Below are positions 1 to 19,806 of a stretch of DNA of 64,000 nt, piece after piece. The DNA is from an uncultured Thermodesulfobacteriota bacterium (GTDB taxonomy: Bacteria; Desulfobacterota; Zymogenia; Zymogenales; Zymogenaceae), in NCBI GenBank assembly GCA_964542895.1, contig CAZIWT010000001.1, positions 30,573-94,572 of the forward strand, in the 5' to 3' direction. Each line of letters begins with the position of its first letter. The first letter of the stretch is position 1. The translations under genes and the position numbers were made by a program. The notes beneath the pieces are model-generated. The model was not told the DNA's origin and made no database searches. It saw nothing but the letters and a program-made list of their open reading frames with translations.

Positions 1-339
1 GACGGATATCTCTATATCGATATCTTCCACCTCGTCCGGGGCAACCCTGCTGAAGCGAAAATCGCTTATCGAGGCGGCCCTCGCCATTGTCTCCACCGTC
101 TCGTAAAGGGGGCCCTCCGCCTCGAACCGCCCTATGCACCCCCTGAGCTTTCCCCCTTTATGGAGTGAGACGAACGCCCCCGCCTCCATCTTGAGATTCT
201 CTTCAGTTATATCGGTTCCCGAAACCCCTTCCGTATCCCTGCTTCTTTTTTTTGATCCGGAGGCGGCCTTCTTGACACTCTCTCTCGCAATCAGAAGGAG
301 CTTCGTCTTATCCTCTTCAGTTAAGTTCATCTCAACCAT
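1..339 (-). CDS. AMMECR1-domain protein, 3'-truncated at window start (N-terminal 113 aa present)
   Basis: My own minus-strand translation from the ATG at 337-339 gives MVEMNLTEEDK...GAFVSLHKGGKLRGCIGRFEAEGPLYETVETMARAASISDFRF. This carries the AMMECR1 signature (GAFV(T/S)L...LRGCIG). An AGGAGAGG RBS precedes the ATG. There is no stop before the window edge, so the gene is not in the supplied ORF track. Confidence 0.65.
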   Translation of the reverse strand, partial: MVEMNLTEEDKTKLLLIARESVKKAASGSKKRSRDTEGVSGTDITEENLKMEAGAFVSLHKGGKLRGCIGRFEAEGPLYETVETMARAASISDFRFSRVAPDEVEDIDIEISV

Positions 340-676: not shown

Positions 677-1837
677 CTATCTCCTGTCCTCCTTTCTCCT
701 GTTTCGCTTCTTCGAGCCGACCTCGAGGATCGTGATGAGGAGAAAGATCAAAAGGGTCTGAATCACGAGGACCAGCGCAACGATGAAATCGGCGTTTCTC
801 AAGGCGATGGTCGCCAGCCCGAAAACGGTGTTTATCGAAATGATAAAGACAACGGCGAGCTTCCTGTCCCCTATCTGGGCCGCGATCCTGTGGTGGATAT
901 GATCCCTCCCCACAAAGGAGAGGAGCTCCTTGAAGCTCTTTACCTGCTTCTTTGCAATCCGGGCGACATTCGTATAGATTATGTCGTATATTAGGACGCC
1001 GAAGATAATAAGGGGCGTGGAAAACGAGACGAGGGGATCGTTTTCAGACCACTCCCCCAGGACGGCCAGAGACGCCAGCACGAACCCCAGAAAGGAGCTT
1101 CCGGCGTCGCCCAAGAATATCCTCGCATTCTTTTTAGGGACAAAGTTGAAGGGGATAAAACCGAGCACACCGCCCAAAAGTGCGATCGAGAGCCATCCCA
1201 GGTCCGGCTGATCCGTCTGAAAGGCTATTATCCCCAAAAAGGACGTTATCACGACCGTAATTCCGCCGCAGAGCCCGTCCATGCCGTCGATGAAGTTCAT
1301 GGCGTTTGTTATCCCCACAATCCAGAAAAAGGTGAGGGCGAGATCCAACACGTGTCCTATGGGAGTCGGTGGAAAGAGCTTCAAGACCACCCCCGCCGAG
1401 ACAACCACCCCGAAGGCCGCCGCCTGCGCCAGGAGCCTGATCCACTCCTTGACCCCGAAGATATCCTCCATGATTCCTACGACAAAGATTATCAATGACG
1501 CCACCATAACCGAGAAGAGCGCCGGGCTTATGACGCCGTTTATAGCGAGGGAGACAATAAATGCAACCACAACGGGGACCCCTCCCAGAATCGGAGTTGC
1601 GTTATCGTGATCCTTTCTACCCTCCGGCACATCCATATAGTTTCGGCTCTTCGAGATTCTGATCGCGACCGGCATAAGAACGTATGAGGTCGACCCGGAA
1701 AAGAGCAGTATCCATATCCACCGCTCACCTACATCGACAAAAAACCTTAAAACCGGCGGAAGGATGAGAACAATAAAAGCCGCGAGGGATATATACCAAA
1801 AAATACCTATATCCCTATCTTTGTTTCCTGAGGTCAT
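677..1837 (-). CDS. polyprenyl-phosphate N-acetylhexosamine-1-phosphate transferase (GT4 family, WecA/MraY/WbpL-like); initiating transferase of the glycan locus
   Basis: Multi-TM 386-aa protein with the MraY/WecA motif NAMNFIDGMDGL and an Asp-rich cytoplasmic loop. Last gene of the minus-strand operon. Confidence 0.85.
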   Translation of the reverse strand: MTSGNKDRDIGIFWYISLAAFIVLILPPVLRFFVDVGERWIWILLFSGSTSYVLMPVAIRISKSRNYMDVPEGRKDHDNATPILGGVPVVVAFIVSLAINGVISPALFSVMVASLIIFVVGIMEDIFGVKEWIRLLAQAAAFGVVVSAGVVLKLFPPTPIGHVLDLALTFFWIVGITNAMNFIDGMDGLCGGITVVITSFLGIIAFQTDQPDLGWLSIALLGGVLGFIPFNFVPKKNARIFLGDAGSSFLGFVLASLAVLGEWSENDPLVSFSTPLIIFGVLIYDIIYTNVARIAKKQVKSFKELLSFVGRDHIHHRIAAQIGDRKLAVVFIISINTVFGLATIALRNADFIVALVLVIQTLLIFLLITILEVGSKKRNRRKEDRR

Positions 1838-1884: not shown

Positions 1885-3021
1885 TCATTTTAATCCGGCC
1901 GTAACATCTATCACGGCCGCCGCCACCCTCTCCACCTCACCGTCCGTCAGCGTCGGGTAGATGGGAATCGAGACGTCCTCCCCAAACGCCCTCTTCGTCC
2001 CCGGGAGCTCCCCGTCCCCTGTATATTGCCCCGTATATTGATATAGGGGCTTGAAGACGGGCCTCCTGGCGGCTATCCCCCTCTTCTCCAGCTTCTTGAT
2101 GACCACCTCGACCGCCCCCGCCGTCTTTACAATAAAGCGGTAATTGATATCATCCCCCGCCGGGGGCTCTTGGGGCATCGGTATCGAGGCCCTCTCGAAC
2201 TCCTTTCGGTAGTAGGCGGCTATCTCCCTCCTCCTCGATATAAAGGCATCGAGTTTTTCAAGCTGGCTTCTTCCCAGCGCCGCCTGGAACTCGGTCATCG
2301 CGTAGTTAAACCTCGTCCCACTCTCCTCCCTCTCGTCGTATATGATGAGGTCTCGAATCTCGTCCGTTATCTCCCCGTCTCCTGTGCAGACCATCCCCCC
2401 CCGGCCGGTGGTCATTACCTTTGTGGCGTAAAAGGAGAAGACCGAGACGTCGCCTAATGTTCCCAGGGGACGCCCCTTGAATGTGCCCCCCGTCGCCTGG
2501 GCGCAGTCCTCGACAACGGGAAGCCCCAGGGATTTAATCTCGTCCACAGGTGCCGACCTCCCGAAGGGGTGGACGGCGATAATAAACGTCCTCCCCCCCT
2601 TTTCCCCCCTCCCCCCCTTGATAGACTTAAGGGCATCGGCGAATTCTTTTTCGCCGGAAACCCCCGTGTCCGGGTCGACGTCGGCGAGTACCGGCAAAGC
2701 GTCCACGTATCTGACGGCGTTCAAAGGGGCCGCGCACAGATAAGCCGGTAGTATTACCCTGTCGTTTACCCCGACCCCCAGCGCAACAAGCGCCAGGTGG
2801 ATTGCCGCCGTTCCGGAATCGACCGAGACGGCGCCACCGGAGCGTATCCCCATCCTCTTTTCAAAGGCCCTCTCGAAGGCGGCCCTCTCATCCCCCACGG
2901 TCAACATCCCTGACCTGATCACCTCGGCCGCCCTTGAGGCATCTTGTTCGTCGATGGACGGGCGGGAGTGGGCAATGACCCCTTCTTTCTTTTTGCCCCC
3001 TTTTTCCGATTGAACGATCAT
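1885..3021 (-). CDS. DegT/DnrJ/EryC1/StrS-family PLP-dependent sugar aminotransferase
   Basis: 378 aa with the ...VFSFYATKVMTTGRGG... lysine region (SxxxxK PLP site) and DegT-like N-terminal fold motifs. Confidence 0.85.
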   Translation of the reverse strand: MIVQSEKGGKKKEGVIAHSRPSIDEQDASRAAEVIRSGMLTVGDERAAFERAFEKRMGIRSGGAVSVDSGTAAIHLALVALGVGVNDRVILPAYLCAAPLNAVRYVDALPVLADVDPDTGVSGEKEFADALKSIKGGRGEKGGRTFIIAVHPFGRSAPVDEIKSLGLPVVEDCAQATGGTFKGRPLGTLGDVSVFSFYATKVMTTGRGGMVCTGDGEITDEIRDLIIYDEREESGTRFNYAMTEFQAALGRSQLEKLDAFISRRREIAAYYRKEFERASIPMPQEPPAGDDINYRFIVKTAGAVEVVIKKLEKRGIAARRPVFKPLYQYTGQYTGDGELPGTKRAFGEDVSIPIYPTLTDGEVERVAAAVIDVTAGLK

Positions 3022-3034
3022 ACCGATGTTAAAT

Positions 3035-3655
3035 TTAGACGTTAATGGCCAGCCGCTGGGGCATGAAGGCCTCGGCGTATTTCATCTTCGCCTGTATCCC
3101 GCGAAAATTCGCCAGGGAGCGGGCGATCTCCACAATCGAGATCCCCTCCACGTTGGTCTTCATTATCTGGGACTTGTGGGCCATGAGCGCCTGCACCTTT
3201 ATGTCCATAAATTTTTCAATGTCCACGAAGACGGTCGGCGAGAAATTCTGAGTCGTGGGAACCTCATAATAGAGGACGTTCCTTATGTGCCTCGCGGAGG
3301 AATTCAACGCCAGGGCGAGCTCCCTGTGATCCTGATGGGTGTCCTCATGGTAGTTTACCAGTATCATATTCGGATCGACCTCCAAGATGACGTCCTCCAC
3401 CGCCCTTATCAGGTCCTTCTGCGATGGAAGGGCGGTGTCCTCGAATTCCCCCCAGAAGATCTTCTTGGCCAATACGGTCCGCTGGGCCTCCTTCTGCTCC
3501 TTCGCCCTCACCTTTCCTACGCCGCCCCTCTCCCCCTTCGTCAATATCATATAATATATAACCTGGCCCTTCCTCGCGTACTTCGCGAGGGTTCCGGCAC
3601 ACCCGAACTCAATGTCATCCGGATGCGCCCCCAGCGCCAGTATGTTCATGTTCAT
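3035..3655 (-). CDS. PIG-L/LmbE-family N-acetylglucosaminyl deacetylase
   Basis: N-terminal LALGAHPDDIEFGCAGTL motif (AHPDD zinc-binding signature) and the conserved HxDH region (HEDTHQDH). 206 aa. Confidence 0.85.
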   Translation of the reverse strand: MNMNILALGAHPDDIEFGCAGTLAKYARKGQVIYYMILTKGERGGVGKVRAKEQKEAQRTVLAKKIFWGEFEDTALPSQKDLIRAVEDVILEVDPNMILVNYHEDTHQDHRELALALNSSARHIRNVLYYEVPTTQNFSPTVFVDIEKFMDIKVQALMAHKSQIMKTNVEGISIVEIARSLANFRGIQAKMKYAEAFMPQRLAINV

Positions 3656-4335
3656 ATATTCCCCCGAATGTAATCAAGGCTCGATCCGCCCACGTTGAAC
3701 AGAAGGTCTACAACAGAAAGATACGGCACAAACTCCCCGAAGAGCTGGGGATATACAGGATGCTTGAAATCCTGAAAGACGACCTCTATTCCGGAGTCGG
3801 CGTAAACCGAGGTGTCCATATACTCCCTCCCCCCGGCACCTGCGAGGTATGTGTCCCCGCCGAGCTCCTTGACAATCCCAACGAGGCGCCCGTCCCTGTC
3901 TTCCAAAAAATCCCCCAGCTCCGAAGCTGTATAGAAGATAGTTTCGATCTTGAGGATCGAGGCGATAAGCCTCACCGTCTCCATGTTCAGGGACGACAGC
4001 CCCTCCCACGGTCTCGAGAGGAGCTCTTCGAAGGCCCCAAAATATTCGCCGAAAAATGGGGCCTTTCCGTAGCAGGAGGTCACGGCCGTGATATGCTTTT
4101 TCCGCCATTTGTCGGTGTTGTTGATCGCAACCTCGTTTATTCTCTGCCCGTGTCTTTGAAGGACCGGCACGGTAAGCCATTGGCCGCCGTTCGTCCCCTT
4201 TATCCTGTTCCTGTTTTGAAACTCGTTCTTCTTGAACTGCACCGTGTCGAGGAAGACAAAGGCGTCTGCCCTTTCTATCTTGTCGAAGTACCCGAGCCAG
4301 GGCAGATATTGCGGCTGGTGAATGGCGATTATCAT
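3652..4335 (-). CDS. WbqC-like family protein (polysaccharide biosynthesis accessory)
   Basis: N-terminus MIIAIHQPQYLPWLGYFDKI is the hallmark of the WbqC-like family. The stop/start overlaps the downstream gene by 4 nt. Confidence 0.75.
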   Translation of the reverse strand: MIIAIHQPQYLPWLGYFDKIERADAFVFLDTVQFKKNEFQNRNRIKGTNGGQWLTVPVLQRHGQRINEVAINNTDKWRKKHITAVTSCYGKAPFFGEYFGAFEELLSRPWEGLSSLNMETVRLIASILKIETIFYTASELGDFLEDRDGRLVGIVKELGGDTYLAGAGGREYMDTSVYADSGIEVVFQDFKHPVYPQLFGEFVPYLSVVDLLFNVGGSSLDYIRGNI

Positions 4336-4407: not shown

Positions 4408-5592
4408 TTATCCCCCTTCCATCATCTCCCTGTAAAGGGCCTTGGTGTTTTTTACCGCGCTCTTGATGTCGAAGAGCGCCTCCGCCCTGACCCTCCCGGC
4501 CCTTCCCATCTTTTTTGCCATTCCCTTATCCCGAAGTACCTCGACACAACTTTTCGCCAGGTCAGCGGGGTTTGACGGGGAAACGAGTATCCCGGTCACT
4601 CCGTCGTCGACCACCTCGGCTATCCCCCCCACACGAGAGGCCACCACCGGAAGCGAGAGGGCCATCGCCTCCACTATACTCATCCCCAATCCCTCGTTGA
4701 GCGAGGGCATGACCATGAGGTCGCAGGCGGAAAGCAGCCGGGAAACGTCGTCGCGAAAGCCTAGAAACGTAAAATTTCCCCCGACCCCCAGCGCCCCTGC
4801 TTCCTCCATTAACTCCACCTTCAGCGGCCCCTCACCCACCATCAGGAAGCGAACCTTCTTAGGAGCCAGGCCGGAGATGATCTCTTTAGACGCCCTGACA
4901 ACGCTGTCGTAACCTTTTATCGGCACCATCCTCCCCACGCAGACAACCACGAGGTTATCGTCCCCGAATCCGAGATCATTGCGAACTCCCTTTCGGTCCG
5001 CCCCCTTCCCGAAGGCCTCAACGTCGATGCCGTTGTATACCGTCCTGTACTTGCCCTCGGTGCCTATGCCCCTCTCGAGAAACTCGCGCCTCCCCGCATC
5101 GGAGAGGGTCACGATCCTCTCACACCATCCGGCCGCGATCCTCTCCACAAACGTGTAAATTCCGGCCTCCCATCGGGGGAAGTAGCCGGTAAAGATGTTC
5201 CCGTGGGGGGAGTATATGAGCCTGCGGTGGCCGGCAAGCCTCCCCGCCAACCTTCCCAGAAAGCCCGCTTTCGATGTATGCGTATGTATAATATCATACC
5301 TGTTTTTCCTCATTAACGCAACCAGCGAGAGGAGGCTCAGAGCGTCCCTGACCGGGCTTACCTCCCTCGTAAACGTCCTGATCTCGTGAACTTCGATCCC
5401 GAGGTCCCTCCCGCAGCCCAAGAGGTCGCTCCCCGGAGGCCCCGCCGCCGCCGCAAGGGACTGGGTGAACTCCCGACCGTCAATTCCGTCAAGGAGCGAG
5501 AGCAGGGCCCTTGGCGCACCCCCCTCCTCCATCCGCGTGATTACGTGAAGGACCTTTATCCTTCCCCCACCTGCTCCACCTTTCTCCCCCAT
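4408..5592 (-). CDS. glycosyltransferase family 4 (GT-B, group 1)
   Basis: 394 aa. N-terminal KVLHVITRMEEGG and C-terminal ...MVMPSLNEGLGMSIVEAMA...VVASRVGG (E-X7-E type GT4 motif). Confidence 0.85.
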   Translation of the reverse strand: MGEKGGAGGGRIKVLHVITRMEEGGAPRALLSLLDGIDGREFTQSLAAAAGPPGSDLLGCGRDLGIEVHEIRTFTREVSPVRDALSLLSLVALMRKNRYDIIHTHTSKAGFLGRLAGRLAGHRRLIYSPHGNIFTGYFPRWEAGIYTFVERIAAGWCERIVTLSDAGRREFLERGIGTEGKYRTVYNGIDVEAFGKGADRKGVRNDLGFGDDNLVVVCVGRMVPIKGYDSVVRASKEIISGLAPKKVRFLMVGEGPLKVELMEEAGALGVGGNFTFLGFRDDVSRLLSACDLMVMPSLNEGLGMSIVEAMALSLPVVASRVGGIAEVVDDGVTGILVSPSNPADLAKSCVEVLRDKGMAKKMGRAGRVRAEALFDIKSAVKNTKALYREMMEGG

Positions 5593-5636: not shown

Positions 5637-6797
5637 CTAAAACCGATACAGCTCCGTGCACCGATCGCACACGTCAAACCGTCCCCGCTCCTTTACGCGC
5701 CTCCTGAACCGCCTGTACAGGTAGTCGTTCCATATCTCGGCGAGGGGACGCTCCCTGATATTGCCGATCTTGACCCCCAGGGAAAGGCACGGCCGAACGG
5801 TGCCGTCAGGAAAGATGTAGGCGACCATCCAGGGGCTCTTGCATCTGCCCGAGTAGCTCTTCGGGGAAAAGGTGAAGTTCGTGTAGTAGGCCTCGATCTC
5901 GTCGTCGGTCAGGTTCGGGTAGACCGTCGCCCCCATCGACCTCGCCTCGGCGAGCTTTTCCCTGAGCCGCTTCGTATCTATGTCCGGTAGCCTGTCCAGG
6001 ACAAAGCCCGCCCAGTCGTGACTCTCGCAGCCGAAGTGCTCTCTCATCTCCCTGTTGTGGCTCTTCAGCCTCCCGCCGTCTATGAAGATCAGGTGATGAA
6101 AGGTTACCTCCCTGGCCCCGAGGGAGCGGGCGGTCTTCACGGTCCGAGGGATATCGAGGTAGTTGAAGTCGAAGATCGTGCTGTTTACGTTGAGAACGGG
6201 ACGGGTTGTCTTAAGTCGCCTCTTCTCTTCATCGAGGATCAAAAATCCCTCCTTCGCGTCATCGAAGACCCCCTTCCTCCCCCTCACCATGTCGTGCACA
6301 TCGGGCGGTCCGTCGAGGGAAAAAATGATCTCGTCCAGTTTTGCGCTGACGAGGTCTTTTGCGTATTTTTTAAGGAGCGTCCCGTTCGTGATGATGTTAA
6401 GCCGCATCCCGTTTCCCTTTATCCGCTCGACGACCTCGATAAGCCCCCCGTAGAGGAGCGGCTCCCCGCCGAAGAGGGTGATCGCCGGCGGAAAGGTGTA
6501 GGAGCGCTTGAGATGATCCACAAGCTTACCTACCTCTTTAACGTCAAGCTCCTCCCTCAAGATCTCGGGCGTATAAAACTTCGAGGAGCCGGTCTCCCCC
6601 CACTGGCCGCACATCTTGCAGCGGAGGTTGCATCTGTAGGTCAACAGGAGCGAGACCGTCTCCGGGGGAGCGCTCCTTCCCCTAAAAAGGAAATAGCTGA
6701 AGCCGGAGCGGGACCTCTGGATAAGGGCCTTCAGGGCGTAACCCGGAAATTCCCTCGCCTTTTTTAGCGCCCTTCCGATATTTCTTATAGGAATCAT
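5637..6797 (-). CDS. radical SAM enzyme with C-terminal Twitch/SPASM-type auxiliary cluster domain
   Basis: CNLRCKMCGQ (CX3CX2C) radical-SAM motif near the N-terminus. C-terminal CKSPWMVAYIFPDGTVRPC (CX12GX4C) followed by CDRC at the extreme C-terminus; this matches the Twitch/partial-SPASM cysteine pattern. Confidence 0.85.
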   Translation of the reverse strand: MIPIRNIGRALKKAREFPGYALKALIQRSRSGFSYFLFRGRSAPPETVSLLLTYRCNLRCKMCGQWGETGSSKFYTPEILREELDVKEVGKLVDHLKRSYTFPPAITLFGGEPLLYGGLIEVVERIKGNGMRLNIITNGTLLKKYAKDLVSAKLDEIIFSLDGPPDVHDMVRGRKGVFDDAKEGFLILDEEKRRLKTTRPVLNVNSTIFDFNYLDIPRTVKTARSLGAREVTFHHLIFIDGGRLKSHNREMREHFGCESHDWAGFVLDRLPDIDTKRLREKLAEARSMGATVYPNLTDDEIEAYYTNFTFSPKSYSGRCKSPWMVAYIFPDGTVRPCLSLGVKIGNIRERPLAEIWNDYLYRRFRRRVKERGRFDVCDRCTELYRF

Positions 6798-6991
6798 TTC
6801 ACCTCTTGTTTCTTTTCTTTGAGGTAATCCTCCCGGTCGACATCGTGGGGGTAGTAGTAGTCCGGCTCTCTCACGTTGGAGAGCTTCTCGGCTATAAGGG
6901 GTATCAGGAGCCCTAAAATAACCGCAACGAGAAGGATTGCGAGATAGAACCTCTTTCTCATCTTTGCTTTCTTACCTTTGGATATCAACAT
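6794..6991 (-). CDS. 65-aa membrane-anchored microprotein, Tyr-rich acidic C-terminus (unannotated family)
   Basis: MLISKGKKAKMRKRFYLAILLVAVILGLLIPLIAEKLSNVREPDYYYPHDVDREDYLKEKKQEVK has one predicted TM helix. The start is 5 nt after the upstream DegT stop and the stop overlaps the radical-SAM start by 4 nt, so it is translationally coupled on both sides. Confidence 0.5.
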   Translation of the reverse strand: MLISKGKKAKMRKRFYLAILLVAVILGLLIPLIAEKLSNVREPDYYYPHDVDREDYLKEKKQEVK

Positions 6992-6996
6992 GGCTT

Positions 6997-8184
6997 TTAA
7001 GAAAATATCTTCCTAAAGGTTTCCAATATTGTCTCCAAATCCCGGCCCGTTACTCCCGGATGAACCGGCAGCACCATAAGGCGCTCGGACAGCCTCGTCG
7101 CCTCGGGAAAGGGATCGGTGGTGTCGGGATACCCGAGGTGGTATATTTTGTGAATCGGCCGTTCGTACATGCGGGCGGTGTCTATCCCCCTTTCTAAGAG
7201 GAGCCGGGCGATGTGCTCAATCCTCTCCCCCTCCTCTATCATAACGGGTAGGTGATTGTAGGAGGGGGACGCCCCGTCTATGATTGCGGGAAGAGTTACC
7301 CCCTCGATCTCCTTTAAGGCGTTGTAAAGGGTTTTTCCGTTTTCGATCCTCCTCCCGATCTGATCGCCGATCGCCTCGATCTGGATATTCCCGAGCCTCG
7401 CGGCAAAGGGAGTCGCAAGAGTCGGCTCGAAGTGCTCGTGAACCTCGGTGGACTTGAAGGGCTCGATCAGCCTGAAGAGGGGGCCGTATACCGTTGGACT
7501 GGTGGCGTAGTTCATCAGAAATAGCGCTGCAAAGAGGACGGTGTTGAAAAGAACGCCGGGGGTCGGCATAGACTCGATCTCCCTCTCGATCTCCCGCGCG
7601 ATATCAGGGTCGCTTGCCGTTATGACCCCCCCCCTGAAGGTCGAGATGATCTTCCCCTTGCACATGGAGAAAAACCCAACGCCGCTCCCCCCACCCACCC
7701 TCTTTCCCGACATCTCGGCCCCGGGAGCCTGGGCGCAGTCCTCGATTACGCAAAAACCCTCCCTCCCGGCCCGCCTCAATACTTCCGAGAGATCCATCGG
7801 GAACCCGAACATGTGAACAGGCAGAACGGCAAGGGTGTCGGTCGATGTCGCTTCACCAAGGCGCTTCGTGTCGAGGTTGAAGGTGTTTATATCTATGTCG
7901 GAAAGCCTCGTCGTAAGCCCCGCCCTCTCTATGGCCAACGTCAGTGTGGGGACGGTGTACGCCGGGAGGACGACCTCCCTCCCTCGATGGAGTTTTTTCA
8001 GCGCCTTCAAGATAATGAAGAGGGCGGAGGTCCCCGATCCCACGAGAAAGGCCCGCTTTACCCCGATGTAGTCGGCGAAGGCCTCCTCGAAGGCGGAAAT
8101 ATCTTTTTCCCCTCCAAGAGAGAGCGCCGAGCGGAGTAGCCCCCACTGGCCCGTGTAAAAGGAGTTTGTAGGTACCCTTCTCAT
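6997..8184 (-). CDS. DegT/DnrJ/EryC1/StrS-family PLP-dependent aminotransferase (second copy)
   Basis: 395 aa with ...FFSMCKGKIISTFRGG... lysine region and DegT-type N-terminus. Overlaps the methyltransferase gene by 4 nt. Confidence 0.85.
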   Translation of the reverse strand: MRRVPTNSFYTGQWGLLRSALSLGGEKDISAFEEAFADYIGVKRAFLVGSGTSALFIILKALKKLHRGREVVLPAYTVPTLTLAIERAGLTTRLSDIDINTFNLDTKRLGEATSTDTLAVLPVHMFGFPMDLSEVLRRAGREGFCVIEDCAQAPGAEMSGKRVGGGSGVGFFSMCKGKIISTFRGGVITASDPDIAREIEREIESMPTPGVLFNTVLFAALFLMNYATSPTVYGPLFRLIEPFKSTEVHEHFEPTLATPFAARLGNIQIEAIGDQIGRRIENGKTLYNALKEIEGVTLPAIIDGASPSYNHLPVMIEEGERIEHIARLLLERGIDTARMYERPIHKIYHLGYPDTTDPFPEATRLSERLMVLPVHPGVTGRDLETILETFRKIFS

Positions 8185-8825
8185 TTCTTAATCCTAACCG
8201 CCTCTATCAGGAACGCGCTCGGAATCGGCCAGAACCTGTACCTTATCGGGACTTTCTTCACCACTTCAAATCCGAGCTCCAAAAGCCTCCTTTTGACCCT
8301 CGACATGGAGTAGGCGTTTACGGGGAGTCTTCTGGTCGAGGGATCGATGATCGTGGAAAACCTGTAGGCCGCACGGATCAGCGGGTCCCTGCCGTTTCTT
8401 ATGTCAAAGATGACGCTCCCCCCGGGACGAACAGCGCCGCAGACCGCCCCCAGGAGGTCCGAGGCCTCGTCCCACGAGGGCTGGTTGTGGAGCGTGTTCA
8501 CGGTAATCGCGAGGTTGAAGGTCTTGTCCCTGAAGGGGAGCGTCTCCCCCCTCGCCGCAACGGCCTTCAGCCTCCCGGAGAAAATCGGGCCGTCACCTGA
8601 GGGATTGTCGCCCCTAATCCTCAATCCCGCCTCTATGAGCTTCTGCTTTAGGACATCGACTCCGACCAACGTCCTGACGGTGCCCCCCTCGATCACCGAC
8701 TTTGCCAGAAGCCCCTCCCCCACGCCGACCTCGAGGGCGACGTCGCACGATTTTTTCCGGGCGATCTCTGCCGCGCGCTCCCTTATCCTATCCGATAGGG
8801 GACCACGGGAGATGTCCGTCCCCAC
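8181..8825 (-). CDS. class I SAM-dependent methyltransferase (GTG start)
   Basis: VALEVGVGEGLL motif I (ExGxGxG) and a downstream acidic motif. 214 aa. A GAGGGG RBS precedes the GTG. Confidence 0.8.
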   Translation of the reverse strand: MGTDISRGPLSDRIRERAAEIARKKSCDVALEVGVGEGLLAKSVIEGGTVRTLVGVDVLKQKLIEAGLRIRGDNPSGDGPIFSGRLKAVAARGETLPFRDKTFNLAITVNTLHNQPSWDEASDLLGAVCGAVRPGGSVIFDIRNGRDPLIRAAYRFSTIIDPSTRRLPVNAYSMSRVKRRLLELGFEVVKKVPIRYRFWPIPSAFLIEAVRIKK

Positions 8826-8933: not shown

Positions 8934-9890
8934 TCAAATATCCTCGAAGAGGGATTTCGCAAATCCGGAGATCCCCCATGAAACTATCTTCAAGTTGCCC
9001 CTCTTTACCGCCTGGAAGGGGAGCCTCAAAACGAAGTGGAGGCATTGAAGGGGGAAAACATACGCCGGGAAGTTCTTCCTGTAGAAACGGCACAGGTTAT
9101 GGCCGTACCAGAAGAACCAATCCCTCGTGTTCTTGGGCCTGCACCCCCCCGTTTGCTCCAGCAGGTGGATGAGGGAAGCCCCGGGGCAAAAAAGCATCCT
9201 GTATCCCAGCCTCCTAACCCTTAAGGACATGTCCGCATCCTCGAGGTGGGCTGTCCCCCCGAAGGCGAGATCAAATCCTCCCGCCTTTACAAGGGCCTGT
9301 TTAAGAAATGACATGTTGCAGCCCCTGGCGTGATCGGCCGTTGTGGGGACGTCGGAATCGAAATTTTCGCGGATCAAAAGACCGAAGAGCCTTACCTTCG
9401 CGATCCTCTTCGGGTTTTGTTCCACTTCATGCGATATCTCACCCGGCGGCAAAATCCTTCCGGCGACGCCCCCCACATTGTCCACGCCGCCGCCCCCGTA
9501 GGCCGCGACGTGGGCGGAGACGAGCCGTTCGTCCGGAACGACATCGTCGTCCAAGAAGATCACCACATCCCCCCCCGCCTTTTCTATCCCCACGTTCCTG
9601 GCGTTTGTAAGCCCCGGCTCGTCGATCTTGACGTAGACTATTCTATCCCGATTCGCCTTTACAAACTCGATCACGGATTCATCCGGGTCGGGGGTCTGAT
9701 CGACCACGATTATCTCGCAGCCGTTACAGCCCGAAGAGAGGAGATGACTTAACGTATCGATCAGGAGCTCCCCCCTCCCGATCGTCGGGATCACCACCGA
9801 GGCCCTTGGAGTGTCTGCAGACATCATGGTAACTATTATATCATCTAAAGGGCGGATTTGAAAATCGATTTGACCCCAATCCTCAAACAA
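8934..9890 (-). CDS. glycosyltransferase family 2
   Basis: VVIPTIGRGELL... N-terminus and DxD motif (FLDDDVV) typical of GT-A/GT2. 318 aa. Confidence 0.85.
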   Translation of the reverse strand: MFEDWGQIDFQIRPLDDIIVTMMSADTPRASVVIPTIGRGELLIDTLSHLLSSGCNGCEIIVVDQTPDPDESVIEFVKANRDRIVYVKIDEPGLTNARNVGIEKAGGDVVIFLDDDVVPDERLVSAHVAAYGGGGVDNVGGVAGRILPPGEISHEVEQNPKRIAKVRLFGLLIRENFDSDVPTTADHARGCNMSFLKQALVKAGGFDLAFGGTAHLEDADMSLRVRRLGYRMLFCPGASLIHLLEQTGGCRPKNTRDWFFWYGHNLCRFYRKNFPAYVFPLQCLHFVLRLPFQAVKRGNLKIVSWGISGFAKSLFEDI

Positions 9891-14887: not shown

Positions 14888-16090
14888 TCAGGACCGGGGA
14901 GACACCCCCTCGATAACCTCCGCGATCTTCCCGTACGTGGTTTCGTACGAGCATTTTTTAACCACCGCCTCCCTCGCCGCCCGGCCGAGCCTCTCCCTCA
15001 GGACACGATCCCTGATCGCCGATTCAAGCTTTTGGGCCAGGTCTTCGGGATTTTTCGGCTCAAAGGTAATCCCGTTCTCCTTGCTCCCGCCGCTTCCGCC
15101 AGAGGTGATCATCTCCGGTATCCCGGTGATCTCCGGCACCACGACGGTAAGTCCCACCGCCATCGCCTCCAGCATCGAGACGGGAAGCCCCTCCGAAACG
15201 CTCGAAAGGACGAATATATCGGAGACCCTGAGCCGATCCCGAAGCCGCCTTCCGTAAAGGCTCCCCGTGAACGTGACGAATCTTTCAAGACCGAGCTTTT
15301 CAACCATTCTTTGAAGATTTCCCCTCTCGGCGCCGTCCCCCACAACGGTCAAATGAAATTTGAGCTTCTTTTTTTTAAGAAGGCCCGTAGCCTTAAGCAG
15401 ATAGGGGTACCCCTTTACGGGATGCAACCTCCCCACGCTGATAATCTCGACGATTTCCCCCTTATCCCTTCCCACCCCAAGGGGGGAGAAGAGTTCCGTG
15501 TCCACGCTGTACGGTATTATCCTGACCCTATCCCCGGCTACATCCCCCCCTATCTCCACGATCTTTTTCTTATTGTATTCGGTCGGCGTTATAACGCTTT
15601 TTGCGTCCCTCAAGAGCTCGGCGGAGTCGCGGGGGGAAAGGAGGAGGAGATCGGAACCGTGGGCCGTAAAGGTGTAGGGGATGTCGATGAGTATCGAGGC
15701 GATCCTGGCCCTCGTTGCCGAGATGGACAACATGTGGGCGTGGATACGGCTTACACCGATGCCCTTCAGGACGAGCGCCGCCTCCAATGATTTTAATACA
15801 AATTTTATCCCGTACAGCCTCCTATACTCCAAAAAAAAATTCAGGACGGCCTTCGGCTTGATGATAAGGAATTTCAGAAGGGCGACGGCCCAGCGGGGAT
15901 ACAGAAGGGAGAACCGCCCGTAGTTGCAATCGTCCCCCTCCGCAATGGAGTCCGGGATATCCGACGTCTCTATATCCCATACGGGAAAGATGTAGACCTC
16001 GTTGCCCCTCTTTCTCAGAAACTCGATCTCCTTGTAAATAAATGTGGTTGATTTTTCCGGAAGGCTTTTTAGGAAATAAGCGATTTTCAC
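14888..16090 (-). CDS. glycosyltransferase family 4
   Basis: 400 aa; ...IFVLSSVSEGLPVSMLEAMAVGLTVVVPEITGIPE... Confidence 0.8.
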   Translation of the reverse strand: MKIAYFLKSLPEKSTTFIYKEIEFLRKRGNEVYIFPVWDIETSDIPDSIAEGDDCNYGRFSLLYPRWAVALLKFLIIKPKAVLNFFLEYRRLYGIKFVLKSLEAALVLKGIGVSRIHAHMLSISATRARIASILIDIPYTFTAHGSDLLLLSPRDSAELLRDAKSVITPTEYNKKKIVEIGGDVAGDRVRIIPYSVDTELFSPLGVGRDKGEIVEIISVGRLHPVKGYPYLLKATGLLKKKKLKFHLTVVGDGAERGNLQRMVEKLGLERFVTFTGSLYGRRLRDRLRVSDIFVLSSVSEGLPVSMLEAMAVGLTVVVPEITGIPEMITSGGSGGSKENGITFEPKNPEDLAQKLESAIRDRVLRERLGRAAREAVVKKCSYETTYGKIAEVIEGVSPRS

Positions 16091-17490
16091 TGTCCATCCC
16101 CGACCGTAATCTCCATTGTTGACTTCTCTATCTTTGACAGCAGGAAAATCGTCGCCATAAAAAACCAGAACGGCTCCATGATCCTTACAATAATGAAAGT
16201 CGCCGCACCTATAGAATGGGCGAGGAGGGCCAGCGTCGCCAGGAGCATCCCGAATGACAACCCCTTGAGAAGCCTGTCCCGGGCCTCCTTAAAGGTGGAG
16301 TAGAGAAAGACTATTATCCTGTAGATCAGGTAAAAAAAGGCGGCAATCCCCAAAAAGCCGGTCTCCGCCAGGACCCTGAAATACATGCTGTCTATTAACC
16401 CAATCCCCGTGACACCCCAGCCCAAGAGCGGTTTTTCAGACCATTTCGACAAGGCATGTCTGAAGGAGGTGATCCTGGCCGACGTAGAAGGATCCAGGTC
16501 TTTGCCCAGAAGGGTCTCGGTGCCCTCATAACCGGGATAAGGCACGAAGGTCTCGGTCACCCTCCCCTTGACCCTTTCCGGGAGCATAAAGGGCGAAAGC
16601 ACCAGAAGGATCAACAGAAGAGCGGCAAGGATGAGCTTCTTTTTTGAAAAGAAAAACATGGTTATAAACATCGGAATCACGGCGATATACGAGCTGCGTG
16701 ACAGGGTAAAGACAAAAGGGATCGAGAGCAGCGCGATTACACCGATGAGATACCTCTTGATCTTCCTGTCCTCAAGAGTCATTAAAAGCCCCGCCGAGAC
16801 GGAGATGATCAAAATCAGGTATCCCCCGAGGGTGTTCGGCTCTCCCGATGTCCCCTCGAACGGGGCGCTTACCCTTACCCCCTGGGGGATCTGGATAATC
16901 GCGTAAAGGGCGGTAAATATCGCGACAATAAAAGCCACGACGACGAAACGCTTGATTTGGCTCCTGTCCTCCAAATTGCTGACAAAAAGAAAGAAGACGA
17001 GGAAGTACTCCATATACTTAAATACATAAAGGAGACCCGACAGGAGGCTTACCTCTCCAACAAGCGATCCCCAGAGGGTTGATAATAGGGTGGCGGAAAT
17101 GTAGATCAGTATCGCGTTGTTAAGGGGGGTCCTAACGATAAGCCCGAGGCCCTTGTATATGGTGGTTTTCAGCACCCAGGACAAAAATACTATGACTATT
17201 ACCACATCCTCGATCCTGATTACGAGGCTTCGCTCCTCCTCCAGCCCGCCTCCGAGGGAAAACTCCGGCGAAAAGAGCATCGCGAAGATTATCAAGTAGA
17301 GGGCCATCTCCGTGTTGAAAAAGCATATCGCCGAAGAGATAACCCCGAGCAACAGGATCATCATCTTGAGCTCCACCCCCCCGGACAGAAAAAGGGCGAG
17401 AAGGGCGATGAATAAAATCATAACCCCGAACAATAAAATTGTGGGGGTGTTTAAATTTTCTGTAGACTCGTCTATTTTGGGCGCCTTCAT
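16087..17490 (-). CDS. O-antigen ligase / Wzy-like polysaccharide polymerase (polytopic membrane protein)
   Basis: 467 aa with ~10-12 hydrophobic helices and a large periplasmic loop. Embedded between glycosyltransferases and the Wzc-like gene. Confidence 0.7.
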   Translation of the reverse strand: MKAPKIDESTENLNTPTILLFGVMILFIALLALFLSGGVELKMMILLLGVISSAICFFNTEMALYLIIFAMLFSPEFSLGGGLEEERSLVIRIEDVVIVIVFLSWVLKTTIYKGLGLIVRTPLNNAILIYISATLLSTLWGSLVGEVSLLSGLLYVFKYMEYFLVFFLFVSNLEDRSQIKRFVVVAFIVAIFTALYAIIQIPQGVRVSAPFEGTSGEPNTLGGYLILIISVSAGLLMTLEDRKIKRYLIGVIALLSIPFVFTLSRSSYIAVIPMFITMFFFSKKKLILAALLLILLVLSPFMLPERVKGRVTETFVPYPGYEGTETLLGKDLDPSTSARITSFRHALSKWSEKPLLGWGVTGIGLIDSMYFRVLAETGFLGIAAFFYLIYRIIVFLYSTFKEARDRLLKGLSFGMLLATLALLAHSIGAATFIIVRIMEPFWFFMATIFLLSKIEKSTMEITVGDGQ

Positions 17491-17532: not shown

Positions 17533-19806
17533 TTATTTCGATTTTCTCTTAAAGAGATTTGCGACTCCATCTTTGGCGGAGGTTAAAACACGCATCATGT
17601 TTTCCTTTGTAAACATCTCCTTCAGCTCCGTAGGGTCTCCGGGTTTGGAGCTTACTTTGTCTTCACTGTAGTAATACTGGTAATGATATTCGTAATAATC
17701 CGGGCCGTATTCCGGTCTTACGCCGTTTAAAATCACCCCCATGACGTTCGCCTTGACCGCCTCCAGGTGCAATTTAGACCGCTTGAGAACGCCCCTTGCG
17801 ATCTTACCCACTTCGTACAGCAAGAAAACTCCTTCGAGCTTTTGGCTCAATAGGACCGCATCCGTAACAGGCAACACCGGCGTGGTGTCGAAAATCACAA
17901 AGTCGTAGTTTTCCTTTATCTCTTCTATGAACTTGGACATCTGTTGGGAATTAATAAGTTCCGACGGATTGATGGGAAAGGTCCCGGAAGTTATGATGTT
18001 GAAATTCGATAACTCCGGGGTCTTTATCAAGACATCCATATCGATACTGCCGAGCATTATATCGTTAATATCCCTTTTTACCTCCCTCCAGTCCCTGTTG
18101 GAAAGGATAATGTCCGACAGCCCCGGTGACTTATCTATACCGAATATCTTGCCGATGGTGCCCCGACGCATATCCGCCTCGACCAAAAGAGTGCGGTAAC
18201 CCCCCTGGGCAAGGGTAACGGCGATATTGACGCAGTTTATCGTTTTCCCTTCTTGGAGCGAGGAGCTTGTAACCATAAACGTCTTTGTTCCCTTTTCCTT
18301 ATTTATGAAGAGGATGTTGGTGCGAAGACTCCTGTACGCCTCCACAACCTGGGATTTAGGGTTCATAAAAAATACAAGGGGAGTCTCCAAAATCCCCTCT
18401 TTTTCTTTTACCTCCTCTTCTTCCGGAACGCCCTTAATCGATGCCACATAGGGAATGACTCCGAGGACGGGGATCTCCAGATAGCTCTCCACGTCCTCAA
18501 TGGTACCGATGGAGGTGTCCATGTTTTCTCTTACAATCGCGAAGAAGATCCCGAGAAACAATCCTATAAAAAGGCCCATAAAAAACGAGGAGGCGATCTT
18601 CGGCGGATTTACCCTTTTATTGTTGCTGAGGGCCGGAGTCACCTCCGACACCTCGACGATCTTCCCGGATTCCTGTATTAGAATCTCCTGGTATTTTGAA
18701 TTCAGCTCTGAAAAGAGACTGCTCTGAAGCTCCACCTCTCTCTGGAGCCTGACGAGGATCAAGCTGTCGTTCGGATACTCCGATGTCTTCTCCTTATACT
18801 TCTCGATATCCCCCTTCAGAATATCCATATCCTTCTTGTTGAGATCTATCCTCGAGTTTACATCCGAACGGATTGAGCCCCTCAATTTCGAGATCTTACT
18901 GTTAATATCCTTTATTTTTGGATGACGATCGGTATATGTGGTAAGGTATTTATCCCGCTCTATCAACAGTTCCTGAAGCTCCAGGTTATATCTGTTCAGG
19001 GTGCTGTCCCTGTTCACCTCTCTAAGCTGAAACATGTTGTTGCTTGATAGACCCCTCAAAGTGAGATTTCTCTTAAAATAGAGCAATGTCTGGTTTTCGC
19101 GATTAAGGGCCTCGTATTTCCTCTCCAGCTCATCGAGGACCTTCAAATCGAGCATGGCCTGGCTGTCCAATGAGACAATGTCCTTTTTGTTTTGAAACTC
19201 CTTCAGCTCATCCTCGGCCTTCTTCAATCTGCTCGAAAGCTCTTTCAACTGTTTCTCGATGAATTCCTTCGTCTTGATGGTTCGCTCGTTTTTTAACTTG
19301 ATATTATACTCTTTGTAGCTTTTTGCCAGCGCATTTGCAATATTGGCGGCCATATCCGGATCGTCGTATATTACAGTAATTTTAATAATATTAGTGTTTT
19401 CCTCCGGCTCTGTCGTTACCGCCGCCTCGATCATCGAGATCTTGGTCATATACTCCTTGGAGTGAAGGATCGTGTCATTCTCCTGCTCCTCGCTCATCTC
19501 TCCAATATCTATAAGCCCAACTTCCTTTGCGGCCTCCTTTAATACCGGGAAACTGGTGATGACCTTGGTCTGGGACCTGATATTGCTGTAGGGCGAGAAG
19601 TAGAAGCTGCTGGGCATCATCCCGGCGAGAGACTGAATGCTGTCGTACTTGACCTTTGCCACCGCCTTGTACTTGGGGGAAGGCGATTGAATCAAGGCAA
19701 ACAAGAAGCTCAGAACCGAAAGAGTAATGGTTGAAAAAATAATGATGTTCTTGCGCTTTCTTACTATCCTGATCAGGTCCTTCAGCTGTATCTCATATTG
19801 AGCCAT
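17533..19806 (-). CDS. polysaccharide co-polymerase / bacterial tyrosine autokinase (Wzz domain + CpsD/Wzc-like ATPase, Tyr-rich tail)
   Basis: 757 aa. N-terminal TM plus coiled-coil chain-length-determinant region. Walker A SSSLQEGKT. C-terminal tyrosine cluster YGPDYYEYHYQYYYSED. Confidence 0.85.
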   Translation of the reverse strand: MAQYEIQLKDLIRIVRKRKNIIIFSTITLSVLSFLFALIQSPSPKYKAVAKVKYDSIQSLAGMMPSSFYFSPYSNIRSQTKVITSFPVLKEAAKEVGLIDIGEMSEEQENDTILHSKEYMTKISMIEAAVTTEPEENTNIIKITVIYDDPDMAANIANALAKSYKEYNIKLKNERTIKTKEFIEKQLKELSSRLKKAEDELKEFQNKKDIVSLDSQAMLDLKVLDELERKYEALNRENQTLLYFKRNLTLRGLSSNNMFQLREVNRDSTLNRYNLELQELLIERDKYLTTYTDRHPKIKDINSKISKLRGSIRSDVNSRIDLNKKDMDILKGDIEKYKEKTSEYPNDSLILVRLQREVELQSSLFSELNSKYQEILIQESGKIVEVSEVTPALSNNKRVNPPKIASSFFMGLFIGLFLGIFFAIVRENMDTSIGTIEDVESYLEIPVLGVIPYVASIKGVPEEEEVKEKEGILETPLVFFMNPKSQVVEAYRSLRTNILFINKEKGTKTFMVTSSSLQEGKTINCVNIAVTLAQGGYRTLLVEADMRRGTIGKIFGIDKSPGLSDIILSNRDWREVKRDINDIMLGSIDMDVLIKTPELSNFNIITSGTFPINPSELINSQQMSKFIEEIKENYDFVIFDTTPVLPVTDAVLLSQKLEGVFLLYEVGKIARGVLKRSKLHLEAVKANVMGVILNGVRPEYGPDYYEYHYQYYYSEDKVSSKPGDPTELKEMFTKENMMRVLTSAKDGVANLFKRKSK

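What the first reader, a model, noticed from the sequence alone, without database searches (positions are those of the whole stretch)
5637..8184. DegT aminotransferase - microprotein - Twitch/SPASM radical-SAM module (plus LmbE and second DegT nearby) inside an EPS operon: aminoglycoside-like tailoring logic
The 5637..6797 enzyme has CX3CX2C plus a C-terminal CX12GX4C...CX2C arrangement and then ends. That is the Twitch-type single auxiliary-cluster pattern. Twitch radical-SAM enzymes include the aminocyclitol dehydrogenase BtrN of butirosin biosynthesis. Butirosin-type pathways use a DegT aminotransferase (BtrS), a Twitch radical-SAM dehydrogenase (BtrN), an LmbE-like deacetylase (BtrD) and a GT4 enzyme (BtrM). 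All four protein classes occur here within 7 kb. This suggests that a hydroxyl of a sugar or cyclitol is oxidised anaerobically by the radical-SAM enzyme and then transaminated. The result would be an unusual diamino or keto-amino sugar in the polymer. Radical-SAM dehydrogenases are rare in characterised polysaccharide loci.
Basis: partly seen in the sequence, partly recalled or inferred. Interest (0 to 1): 0.7.

Follow-up and report, generated by a model that had tools for sequence, protein, structure and literature searches.

The report
Twitch radical-SAM/aminotransferase pair in polysaccharide operon
An uncharacterised iron-sulfur "radical SAM" enzyme sits next to a sugar aminotransferase in a polysaccharide operon, and the pair recurs in at least eight mostly uncultured, mostly anaerobic bacterial phyla; it most likely makes an unusual amino sugar, but it is not an antibiotic-like or peptide-modifying system.

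Summary
On the minus strand lie a DegT aminotransferase (6997-8184), a 65-aa single-pass membrane microprotein (6794-6991) and a 386-aa radical-SAM enzyme (5637-6797). The enzyme has CX3CX2C and then C319-X12-G-X4-C337...C377-X2-C380, ending six residues later. These four C-terminal Cys align one-to-one with Cys169/187/232/235 of BtrN, so the Twitch reading holds.

Methyltransferase-DegT2-rSAM is a conserved trio. DegT2 lies within 4 kb upstream in 39 of 63 species-level loci, from at least eight phyla.

Three parts of the interpretation need correcting:
- No cyclitol-forming enzyme was found among the window ORFs scanned.
- The microprotein occurs only in Zymogenaceae-type loci and is once fused to DegT2, so it is probably a membrane anchor, not a peptide substrate.

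The closest whole-protein structure is BlsE, a sugar 1,2-diol dehydratase, not BtrN.

Best model: the rSAM makes a keto-sugar that DegT2 aminates and the methyltransferase may methylate. Dehydrogenation is favoured and dehydration is a close second. I rate it a new member of a known kind, of moderate interest.

The parts
8181..8825 (-). Class I SAM-dependent methyltransferase (214 aa), first gene of the conserved trio MT-DegT2-rSAM
   Evidence: Pfam Methyltransf_11/25. Found within 5 kb upstream of the rSAM in 27 of 63 loci and directly precedes DegT2. No specific PDB relative; the best is RebM, E 1e-3, so N- versus O-methylation is unknown.
6997..8184 (-). DegT2: DegT/DnrJ/EryC1-family PLP aminotransferase (395 aa), a distinct clade that travels with the rSAM
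   Evidence: Pfam PF01041, 198 bits. No NCBIfam equivalog above its cut-off. The clade scores at least 215 bits, then drops to 148 bits or less for generic DegT. Found same-strand within 4 kb upstream of the rSAM in 39 of 63 loci.
7651..7653 (-). Codon of Lys178, the PLP Schiff-base lysine of DegT2
   Evidence: Aligns with the catalytic Lys of 7b0d and is invariant in 42 of 42 DegT2-clade members. This argues for a transaminase rather than a His-type dehydratase such as ColD or E1.
6794..6991 (-). 65-aa microprotein: basic N-terminus, one transmembrane helix, acidic/aromatic tail with the motif YYYPxDxxR(D/E)xY. Probable membrane anchor for DegT2
   Evidence: Translation; ATGA overlap with the rSAM start. 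The motif scan finds it in five related loci (L001, L002, L004-L006); L003 has only a weak tblastn hit. Absent from all other phyla, where DegT2 ends 6-50 nt before the rSAM. Fused in frame to DegT2 in P0132, 457 aa.
5637..6797 (-). Radical-SAM enzyme (386 aa): conserved two-helix N-terminal extension (residues 1-45), radical-SAM core, insert (about 240-315), C-terminal Twitch domain
6609..6632 (-). C56-X3-C60-X2-C63: ligands of the SAM-binding [4Fe-4S] cluster
   Evidence: Sequence; invariant in 75 of 75. The FGGEP 'GGE' motif G110-G111-E112 is invariant.
5640..5846 (-). Twitch domain (residues 318-386): C319, C337, C377 and C380 as ligands of a single auxiliary cluster. No second-cluster CX2CX5CX3C motif
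   Evidence: Aligns to BtrN 168-237 with the four Cys matched to BtrN Cys169/187/232/235. C319/C377/C380 are invariant. Position 337 is Cys in 51 members; otherwise it is Tyr/Phe followed by His338, in 24 of 24 cases.
4408..5592 (-). GT4a: GT4 glycosyltransferase, first gene of the separate core module
   Evidence: Pfam. NCBIfam hits to stp2, BshA and MshA are all below their cut-offs. Follows the rSAM in most cassette loci.
3652..4335 (-). WbqC-family protein (227 aa), predicted BshC-like / class I aminoacyl-tRNA-synthetase-like ligase fold
3035..3655 (-). LmbE/PIG-L family de-N-acetylase
   Evidence: Pfam PF02585. The best NCBIfam hit is BshB1, 117 bits against a cut-off of 182.
1885..3021 (-). 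DegT1: canonical sugar aminotransferase of the core module
   Evidence: Pfam, 255 bits. PseC-, perosamine-synthase- and ArnB-like.
677..1837 (-). WecA/MraY-family polyprenyl-phosphate sugar-phosphate transferase (PNPT), last gene of the operon
   Evidence: Pfam Glycos_transf_4, 127 bits. Ends the cassette in other phyla. The next minus-strand ORF downstream looks AMMECR1-like by eye.

Best explanation
MT-DegT2-rSAM is an accessory sugar-tailoring module added to a Wzx/Wzy-type polysaccharide operon. The rSAM is a Twitch-type enzyme with two clusters. It abstracts a hydrogen from a carbinol carbon of a sugar, most likely a nucleotide sugar, and passes the second electron to its fully ligated auxiliary [4Fe-4S] cluster. 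This oxidises the secondary alcohol to a ketone without NAD+ or O2, as BtrN and SpeY do. DegT2, a Lys-type PLP transaminase, then converts the ketone to an amine, and the adjacent methyltransferase may methylate the product. In the Zymogenaceae-type lineage the 65-aa protein tethers DegT2, and perhaps the pair, to the membrane. The downstream GT4a-WbqC-LmbE-DegT1-PNPT genes are a separate module. By analogy with BshA/BshB/BshC it adds GlcNAc, deacetylates it and N-aminoacylates the free amine on an undecaprenyl-linked glycan. Shown: domain architecture, cluster-ligand pattern, conserved synteny, predicted folds. Inferred: substrate, regiochemistry, redox direction, order of steps, role of the microprotein.
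For: - Twitch domain: BtrN is the only significant PDB match to the C-terminal domain (E 2.4e-5 single sequence, 1.3e-9 profile). All four Cys are matched, and the protein ends six residues after CX2C.
- Fourth-ligand switch: Cys337 or His338, in perfect covariation (24 of 24 against 1 of 51). This implies a fully ligated cluster, as in the dehydrogenase BtrN, rather than an open substrate-binding iron site as in MoaA.
- Coupling to DegT2: same strand, usually 6-50 nt apart, in 39 of 63 loci across Desulfobacterota, Nitrospirota, anammox Planctomycetota, Latescibacterota, KSB1, Bacteroidota, Omnitrophota and Gemmatimonadota. DegT2 is a distinct clade with an invariant catalytic Lys.
- No other source of the ketone: no SDR 4,6-dehydratase or Gfo/Idh/MocA dehydrogenase lies in the operon, and no sugar 4,6-dehydratase-type SDR elsewhere in the window. 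The trio is self-sufficient in the Planctomycetota loci that lack the core module.
- Microprotein as anchor: natural DegT2-microprotein fusion P0132.
Against: - The best whole-protein structural and sequence match is BlsE, now assigned as a 1,2-diol dehydratase (title cited), not a dehydrogenase. BtrN matches only in the Twitch domain, plus an abridged core.
- All similarities are remote: at most 24% identity, and no NCBIfam model is reached.
- About 24 of 63 loci have no DegT2 within 4 kb. Examples are the Marinimicrobia-type rSAM-response regulator-Wza-Wzz loci and a Desulfobacterota group where the rSAM is antisense to its neighbours. One DegT2-clade gene has no rSAM nearby.
- DegT1 also lacks a neighbouring dehydratase, so the absence of an SDR is weak evidence.
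- Nothing identifies the substrate.
- The microprotein fusion comes from a single MAG, and an assembly error cannot be excluded.
Confidence: 0.35

Rival explanations
1. BlsE/AprD4-type radical 1,2-diol dehydratase. The rSAM abstracts H from a sugar carbon and eliminates the neighbouring hydroxyl, giving a deoxy-keto sugar. DegT2 aminates it to an amino-deoxy sugar. Here too the rSAM supplies the carbonyl for DegT2, but the product is deoxygenated.
Against: The NCBIfam BlsE model scores 53 bits against a cut-off of 400. The sequence match covers only the core (residues 102-217). The Twitch domain with four conserved ligands matches BtrN in sequence, not BlsE. Dehydration needs net electron input, whereas a fully ligated auxiliary cluster is best precedented as an electron acceptor.
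Confidence: 0.22
2. DesI/DesII-type deoxygenation. DegT2 first aminates a 4-keto-6-deoxy sugar. The rSAM then removes that amine radically to give a 3-keto-4,6-dideoxy sugar. DegT1 aminates C3 and the methyltransferase N-methylates, giving a desosamine-like sugar.
Against: No 4,6-dehydratase to start the pathway lies in the cassette in any phylum examined. DegT1 belongs to a module that exists independently of the rSAM, and the trio exists without DegT1. The methyltransferase shows no specific similarity to the sugar N,N-dimethyltransferases in the PDB. As far as I recall, DesII has no auxiliary cluster, while this family conserves one.
Confidence: 0.1
3. Other radical carbohydrate chemistry that is not mechanistically coupled to DegT2. 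Options are epimerisation, C-C bond formation or rearrangement of a sugar, or modification of the aminoacyl group that WbqC is predicted to attach.
For: A third of the loci lack DegT2 nearby, yet the rSAM is still next to polysaccharide export genes. The Twitch/SPASM fold supports many reaction types. WbqC is BshC-like, which suggests an aminoacyl-sugar that could be a radical target.
Against: There is no conserved Cys beyond the six or seven cluster ligands to act as an H-atom donor for epimerisation. The tight, translationally coupled DegT2-rSAM spacing across phyla suggests consecutive steps. The trio occurs without WbqC.
Confidence: 0.15
4. Butirosin-like aminocyclitol pathway. BtrS/BtrN/BtrM/BtrD equivalents would build a 2-deoxystreptamine- or inosamine-type unit that is glycosylated and deacetylated.
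For: All four protein classes are present within 6.3 kb. The Twitch domain is BtrN-like. DegT2's best PDB hit is a glutamine-scyllo-inositol transaminase, though only marginally better than perosamine synthase (E 2.7e-31 against 1.3e-30).
Against: No DOI synthase, inositol-phosphate synthase or other cyclitol-forming enzyme appeared in the 50 main window ORFs or the family representatives scanned with Pfam, or in the precomputed annotation of five further loci. GT4 and LmbE belong to a separate module with WbqC and a polyprenyl-phosphate transferase. The operon is an export-type EPS operon.
Confidence: 0.05
5. RiPP-type system in which the rSAM is a peptide maturase acting on the adjacent 65-aa microprotein.
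For: A small ORF sits immediately upstream and is translationally coupled to a SPASM-family rSAM. SkfB, SuiB and CteB are structural relatives.
Against: The microprotein occurs only in Zymogenaceae-type loci, while the rSAM is 42-60% identical in phyla that lack it. The microprotein has a transmembrane helix and contains no Cys. It is fused to DegT2 in one genome. There is no RRE/PqqD domain, protease or transporter. The seven-Cys SPASM motif is absent.
Confidence: 0.03

Closest known systems
BtrN (butirosin; 2-deoxy-scyllo-inosamine dehydrogenase, Twitch rSAM) with its transaminase BtrS
   Same: A single auxiliary cluster sits in a C-terminal Twitch domain. All four Cys align (C319/337/377/380 to BtrN Cys169/187/232/235). 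A DegT-family transaminase is the partner. The proposed chemistry is the same: alcohol to ketone, then transamination (BtrN reaction as described in PMC9012708).
BlsE (blasticidin S; radical-SAM 1,2-diol dehydratase of cytosylglucuronic acid, PDB 7VOB)
   Different: The NCBIfam BlsE model scores far below its cut-off (53 against 400 bits). The sequence match is limited to the core. The substrate is a nucleoside antibiotic precursor. I could not check whether BlsE has an auxiliary cluster.
DesII/DesI/DesV/DesVI (desosamine pathway)
   Different: No 4,6-dehydratase is present. DegT1 belongs to a separable module. This family conserves an auxiliary cluster. The methyltransferase is not detectably DesVI/TylM1-like.
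SpeY (spectinomycin; 'Twitch radical SAM dehydrogenase', PDB 7WZV)
   Same: It is a Twitch rSAM that oxidises a sugar hydroxyl. There is a sequence match in the N-terminal core (E 1.4e-9).
Bacillithiol/mycothiol logic: BshA (GT4), BshB (LmbE), BshC; MshA, MshB, MshC
   Different: All NCBIfam scores are below the curated cut-offs. WbqC is 227 aa against BshC's 540. The module ends with a polyprenyl-phosphate transferase inside an EPS or LPS-like operon, so the acceptor is probably a lipid-linked glycan, not malate or inositol.
SPASM peptide maturases and anSME
   Different: There is no second auxiliary-cluster motif, no RRE/PqqD domain and no conserved precursor peptide or sulfatase partner.

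Membership tests
Radical SAM superfamily | CX3CX2C motif for the SAM-binding [4Fe-4S] cluster, plus the GGE motif | tested here: met
   C56/C60/C63 are invariant in 75 of 75. G110-G111-E112 are invariant. Pfam PF04055 scores 77 bits against a cut-off of 29.5.
Twitch-domain rSAM subfamily | C-terminal truncated SPASM domain with ligands for one auxiliary cluster only | tested here: met
   Pfam SPASM matches residues 319-381. The four Cys align with Cys169/187/232/235 of BtrN. The protein ends six residues after CX2C, so the CX2CX5CX3C...C second-cluster ligands are absent.
Twitch-domain rSAM subfamily | Actually binds a second Fe-S cluster | not testable with these tools
   Needs Fe/S analysis and EPR or Mossbauer spectroscopy. 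Indirect support comes from the Cys337/His338 ligand covariation.
BtrN family (DOIA dehydrogenase) | Full-length homology to BtrN and a 2-deoxystreptamine pathway context (DOI synthase) | tested here: not met
   [not shown]
BlsE family (NCBIfam TIGR04466) | Score above the curated cut-off | tested here: not met
   53 bits against a cut-off of 400.
SPASM RiPP maturases | Seven-Cys SPASM motif with two auxiliary clusters, an RRE/PqqD domain, and a conserved precursor peptide | tested here: not met
   Only four C-terminal Cys are present. Pfam finds no PqqD/RRE in the rSAM or the operon. The microprotein is absent outside one lineage.
DegT/DnrJ/EryC1 sugar aminotransferases (for DegT2) | Pfam PF01041 above its cut-off and a Schiff-base lysine (not the His of ColD/E1-type dehydratases) | tested here: met
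   198 bits against a cut-off of 19.8. K178 aligns to the catalytic Lys and is invariant in 42 of 42. No named equivalog is reached.
Bacillithiol pathway (BshA/BshB/BshC), considered for the core module | NCBIfam equivalog scores above cut-off | tested here: not met
   [not shown]

The most novel reading that the evidence does not exclude
The trio is a widespread, NAD- and O2-independent route to a so far undescribed (N-methyl)amino or amino-deoxy sugar in the envelope polysaccharides of anaerobes, including anammox bacteria. It may act at the membrane on a lipid-linked intermediate rather than on a nucleotide sugar. The hints for this are the DegT2 membrane-anchor microprotein and the conserved basic N-terminal helices of the rSAM. 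The auxiliary cluster would be tuned by a Cys/His ligand switch.
Probability: 0.15. Interest if true: 0.7.

Novelty: new member of a known kind. Interest (0 to 1): 0.45.

Why it matters
All characterised radical-SAM sugar enzymes of this type (BtrN, SpeY, DesII, BlsE, AprD4) come from antibiotic pathways. This family would bring the same chemistry into primary cell-surface glycan synthesis. It occurs in at least eight mostly uncultured, mostly anaerobic phyla, with relatives in about 500 GTDB species genomes. It gives a concrete target, one rSAM plus one transaminase, for finding new amino sugars. It would also explain how strict anaerobes make keto-sugar intermediates without a neighbouring NAD-dependent dehydratase. 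As a side result, WbqC, a large family with no assigned function found in O-antigen and EPS clusters, gets a testable role as a BshC-like aminosugar-amino acid ligase.

Tried and rejected
- Literature searches for 'WbqC' and for radical SAM + twitch + aminotransferase + polysaccharide found nothing relevant. The BlsE dehydratase paper (PMC8934444) is not held, so only its title could be cited.
- PADLOC gave only generic viperin-level rSAM hits, so there is no defence-system membership.
- PDB sequence searches gave nothing for WbqC and nothing useful for the methyltransferase.
- The RiPP-precursor idea was rejected because the microprotein is lineage-restricted.
- The aminocyclitol idea was rejected because no cyclitol-forming enzyme was found.
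- I looked for an SDR 4,6-dehydratase among the main ORFs across the whole window to test the desosamine-like model. None was found; the only SDR is a FabG-like adh_short at 37685-38449.
- My own ORF caller replaced WbqC and LmbE in the window with longer false ORFs and missed some genes in the loci. The co-occurrence counts are therefore lower bounds.
- Only the best 80 of 507 genome loci could be examined.
Full report
**What is there.**
All genes of the region lie on the minus strand and form the distal part of one long operon. Pfam annotation gives this order of transcription:
- AAA ATPase, HD-domain protein
- Wza (19830-20549), Wzz/BY-kinase (17533-19806), Wzy-like protein (16087-17490)
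- five GT4 glycosyltransferases, then GT2 (8934-9890)
- methyltransferase (8181-8825), DegT2 (6997-8184), 65-aa microprotein (6794-6991), radical-SAM enzyme (5637-6797)
- GT4a (4408-5592), WbqC (3652-4335), LmbE/PIG-L (3035-3655), DegT1 (1885-3021), WecA-like phosphotransferase (677-1837)

The microprotein's stop overlaps the rSAM start (ATGA). The rSAM has C56-X3-C60-X2-C63 and, at its C-terminus, C319-X12-G-X4-C337 ... C377-X2-C380-TELYRF-stop.

**The radical-SAM enzyme.**
- No curated NCBIfam model is reached. The best is 101 bits against a cut-off of 380, and BlsE scores 53 against 400.
- The family is large: at least 1849 database homologues and 507 confirmed stretches in GTDB species-representative genomes. 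Length is uniform at about 387 aa, and identity across phyla is 42-60%.
- In 75 members C56, C60, C63, C319, C377 and C380 are invariant.
- The C-terminal 70 residues match only BtrN in the PDB (E 2.4e-5 single sequence, 1.3e-9 profile). The four Cys fall exactly on Cys169, 187, 232 and 235 of BtrN. From my knowledge of the BtrN structure, those are its auxiliary-cluster ligands.
- The protein stops before the second-cluster motif of full SPASM domains. It is therefore a Twitch-type enzyme as that term is defined (PMC9012708).
- Position 337 is Cys in 51 members. In the other 24 it is Tyr or Phe, always followed by His338, whereas His338 occurs in only 1 of 51 Cys337 proteins. Compensation of this kind argues that a fourth ligand is always supplied. 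That points to a fully ligated electron-transfer cluster, as in BtrN, rather than an open substrate-binding site, as in MoaA. This step is an inference.
- The enzyme therefore does not cluster with peptide maturases or anSME. Its nearest neighbour acts on a sugar, but every relationship is remote.
- There is no RRE/PqqD domain. The conserved N-terminal 45 residues form two basic helices.

**Genomic context elsewhere.**
In the 80 best species-level loci I mapped the window's proteins by tblastn and clustered all ORFs.
- A cassette recurs: [GT9 GT9] MT - DegT2 - rSAM - GT4a - (about 507-aa PHP-domain membrane protein) - WbqC - LmbE - DegT1 - PNPT.
- It is found in Zymogenaceae and other Desulfobacterota, Nitrospirota, anammox Planctomycetota, Latescibacterota, KSB1, Bacteroidota, Omnitrophota and Gemmatimonadota.
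- DegT2 lies on the same strand within 4 kb upstream in 39 of 63 loci that have enough flank. WbqC lies downstream in 25 of 42. Both counts are lower bounds.
- DegT2 is a distinct clade: scores are at least 215 bits, then fall to 148 or less for generic DegT proteins. Its Schiff-base lysine K178 is invariant.

Two sub-modules can be separated.
- GT4-(PHP)-WbqC-PIG-L-DegT-PNPT occurs without any rSAM or DegT2 in a Syntrophus genome and in another long contig. WbqC itself is far more widespread, with more than 7700 close homologues.
- Several Planctomycetota carry GT2-GT4-MT-DegT2-rSAM followed by unrelated genes (L035, L038, L042, L051, L055, L062).
- Scalindua inserts a CE4 deacetylase and a carbamoyltransferase between DegT2 and the rSAM.

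Not every rSAM has the partner.
- Marinimicrobia-type loci have rSAM-response regulator-Wza-Wzz.
- A Desulfobacterota group has the rSAM antisense to unrelated neighbours.
- P0047 sits among housekeeping genes.
- One DegT2-clade gene lacks an rSAM nearby.

**The microprotein.**
It has a basic N-terminus, one transmembrane helix and a tail with the motif YYYPxDxxR(D/E)xY. The motif scan finds it in five related loci (L001, L002, L004-L006), and L003 shows a weak tblastn hit. In other phyla DegT2 ends 6-50 nt before the rSAM. In one genome it is fused in frame to the C-terminus of DegT2 (P0132, 457 aa). It is therefore not part of the conserved machinery and not a RiPP precursor. The most economical reading is a membrane tether for DegT2. 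That reading rests on a single MAG, and an assembly error cannot be excluded.

**The neighbouring module.**

**Mechanism.**
No SDR 4,6-dehydratase, Gfo/Idh/MocA dehydrogenase, DOI synthase or inositol-phosphate synthase lies in the operon. No sugar 4,6-dehydratase-type SDR or cyclitol-forming enzyme turned up in the other main window ORFs I scanned, or in the cassette loci annotated elsewhere. The self-contained trio is best explained by the rSAM creating the carbonyl that DegT2 aminates, with the methyltransferase acting on the product.
- I favour BtrN/SpeY-type two-electron oxidation (confidence 0.35), because of the BtrN-like, always fully ligated auxiliary cluster.
- BlsE-type diol dehydration follows closely (0.22). 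BlsE is the nearest structure and is titled a 1,2-diol dehydratase (reference quoted).
- A DesI/DesII/DesV/DesVI-like deoxygenation matches the enzyme classes. It lacks a starting dehydratase and needs DegT1, which belongs to a separable module (0.10).
- Uncoupled radical chemistry (0.15), an aminocyclitol pathway (0.05) and a RiPP system (0.03) are less likely.

**Verdict.**
The Twitch enzyme with a DegT partner on a carbohydrate substrate stands. The butirosin-like four-enzyme logic, the role of the microprotein and the specific 'dehydrogenase' claim are not established. This is an uncharacterised family of a known kind, a radical-SAM/PLP sugar-tailoring pair, in a new setting: envelope polysaccharide operons of uncultured anaerobes. 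It is worth biochemical follow-up but is not categorically new.

Noticed in passing
[not shown]
   Followed up: partly
window 5784-5789 (-) (codons 337-338 of the rSAM); L040, L045, L056-L060, L064-L075, L078-L080: The fourth auxiliary-cluster ligand switches across the family. It is either Cys337 with Gln/Leu338 (51 sequences) or Tyr/Phe337 with His338 (24 of 24). Both forms occur inside the DegT2/WbqC cassette.
   Followed up: partly
L005 (contig CAWBYW010000018.1), protein P0132: DegT2 and the microprotein are fused in one 457-aa ORF. This could be a Rosetta-stone hint of physical association, or an assembly or frameshift error in that MAG.
   Followed up: partly
L013, L015, L017, L019, L024, L026, L028, L030, L031, L033, L039 (Scalindua and other anammox loci): A CE4 polysaccharide deacetylase and a NodU/CmcH-type carbamoyltransferase are inserted between DegT2 and the rSAM. 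A roughly 507-aa PHP-domain membrane protein, absent from the window, follows the rSAM in 27 loci.
   Followed up: partly
L084 and L085; L010, L015, L017, L020, L034 and others: In other phyla the cassette is preceded by GT9 heptosyltransferase-like genes, an APH-type kinase and, in Omnitrophota, a PMT_2/ArnT-like transferase. In those organisms the glycan may be LPS-core-like rather than a free EPS.
   Followed up: no
window 63293-63976 (-): A second protein with a SPASM domain (Pfam, 58 bits) sits at the right edge of the window. Its N-terminus probably runs off the end, so it is likely a second rSAM/SPASM enzyme unrelated to the EPS operon.
   Followed up: no
window about 1-330 (-): Directly downstream of the phosphotransferase, an ORF begins (MVEMNLTEEDK...GAFVSLHKGGKLRGCIG...) and runs off the left edge of the window. 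It looks like an AMMECR1-family protein. I recognised it by eye only and did not scan it.
   Followed up: no
window 23811-24656 (-): A secreted FGE-sulfatase-domain (formylglycine-generating-enzyme-like) protein lies just upstream of the EPS operon. It has no link to the rSAM, but it should not be mistaken for an anSME/sulfatase context.
   Followed up: no
window 33280-34386 (+) and 34519-35622 (+): Two tandem URO-D-like (uroporphyrinogen decarboxylase / MtaA-type methyltransferase family) paralogues.
   Followed up: no
L082 16654-20584: In one cassette-bearing contig, the phosphotransferase is followed immediately by an unrelated rSAM, a peptidase, ScmC and PqqD. This looks like a RiPP cluster and could be wrongly linked to the sugar rSAM.
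   Followed up: no
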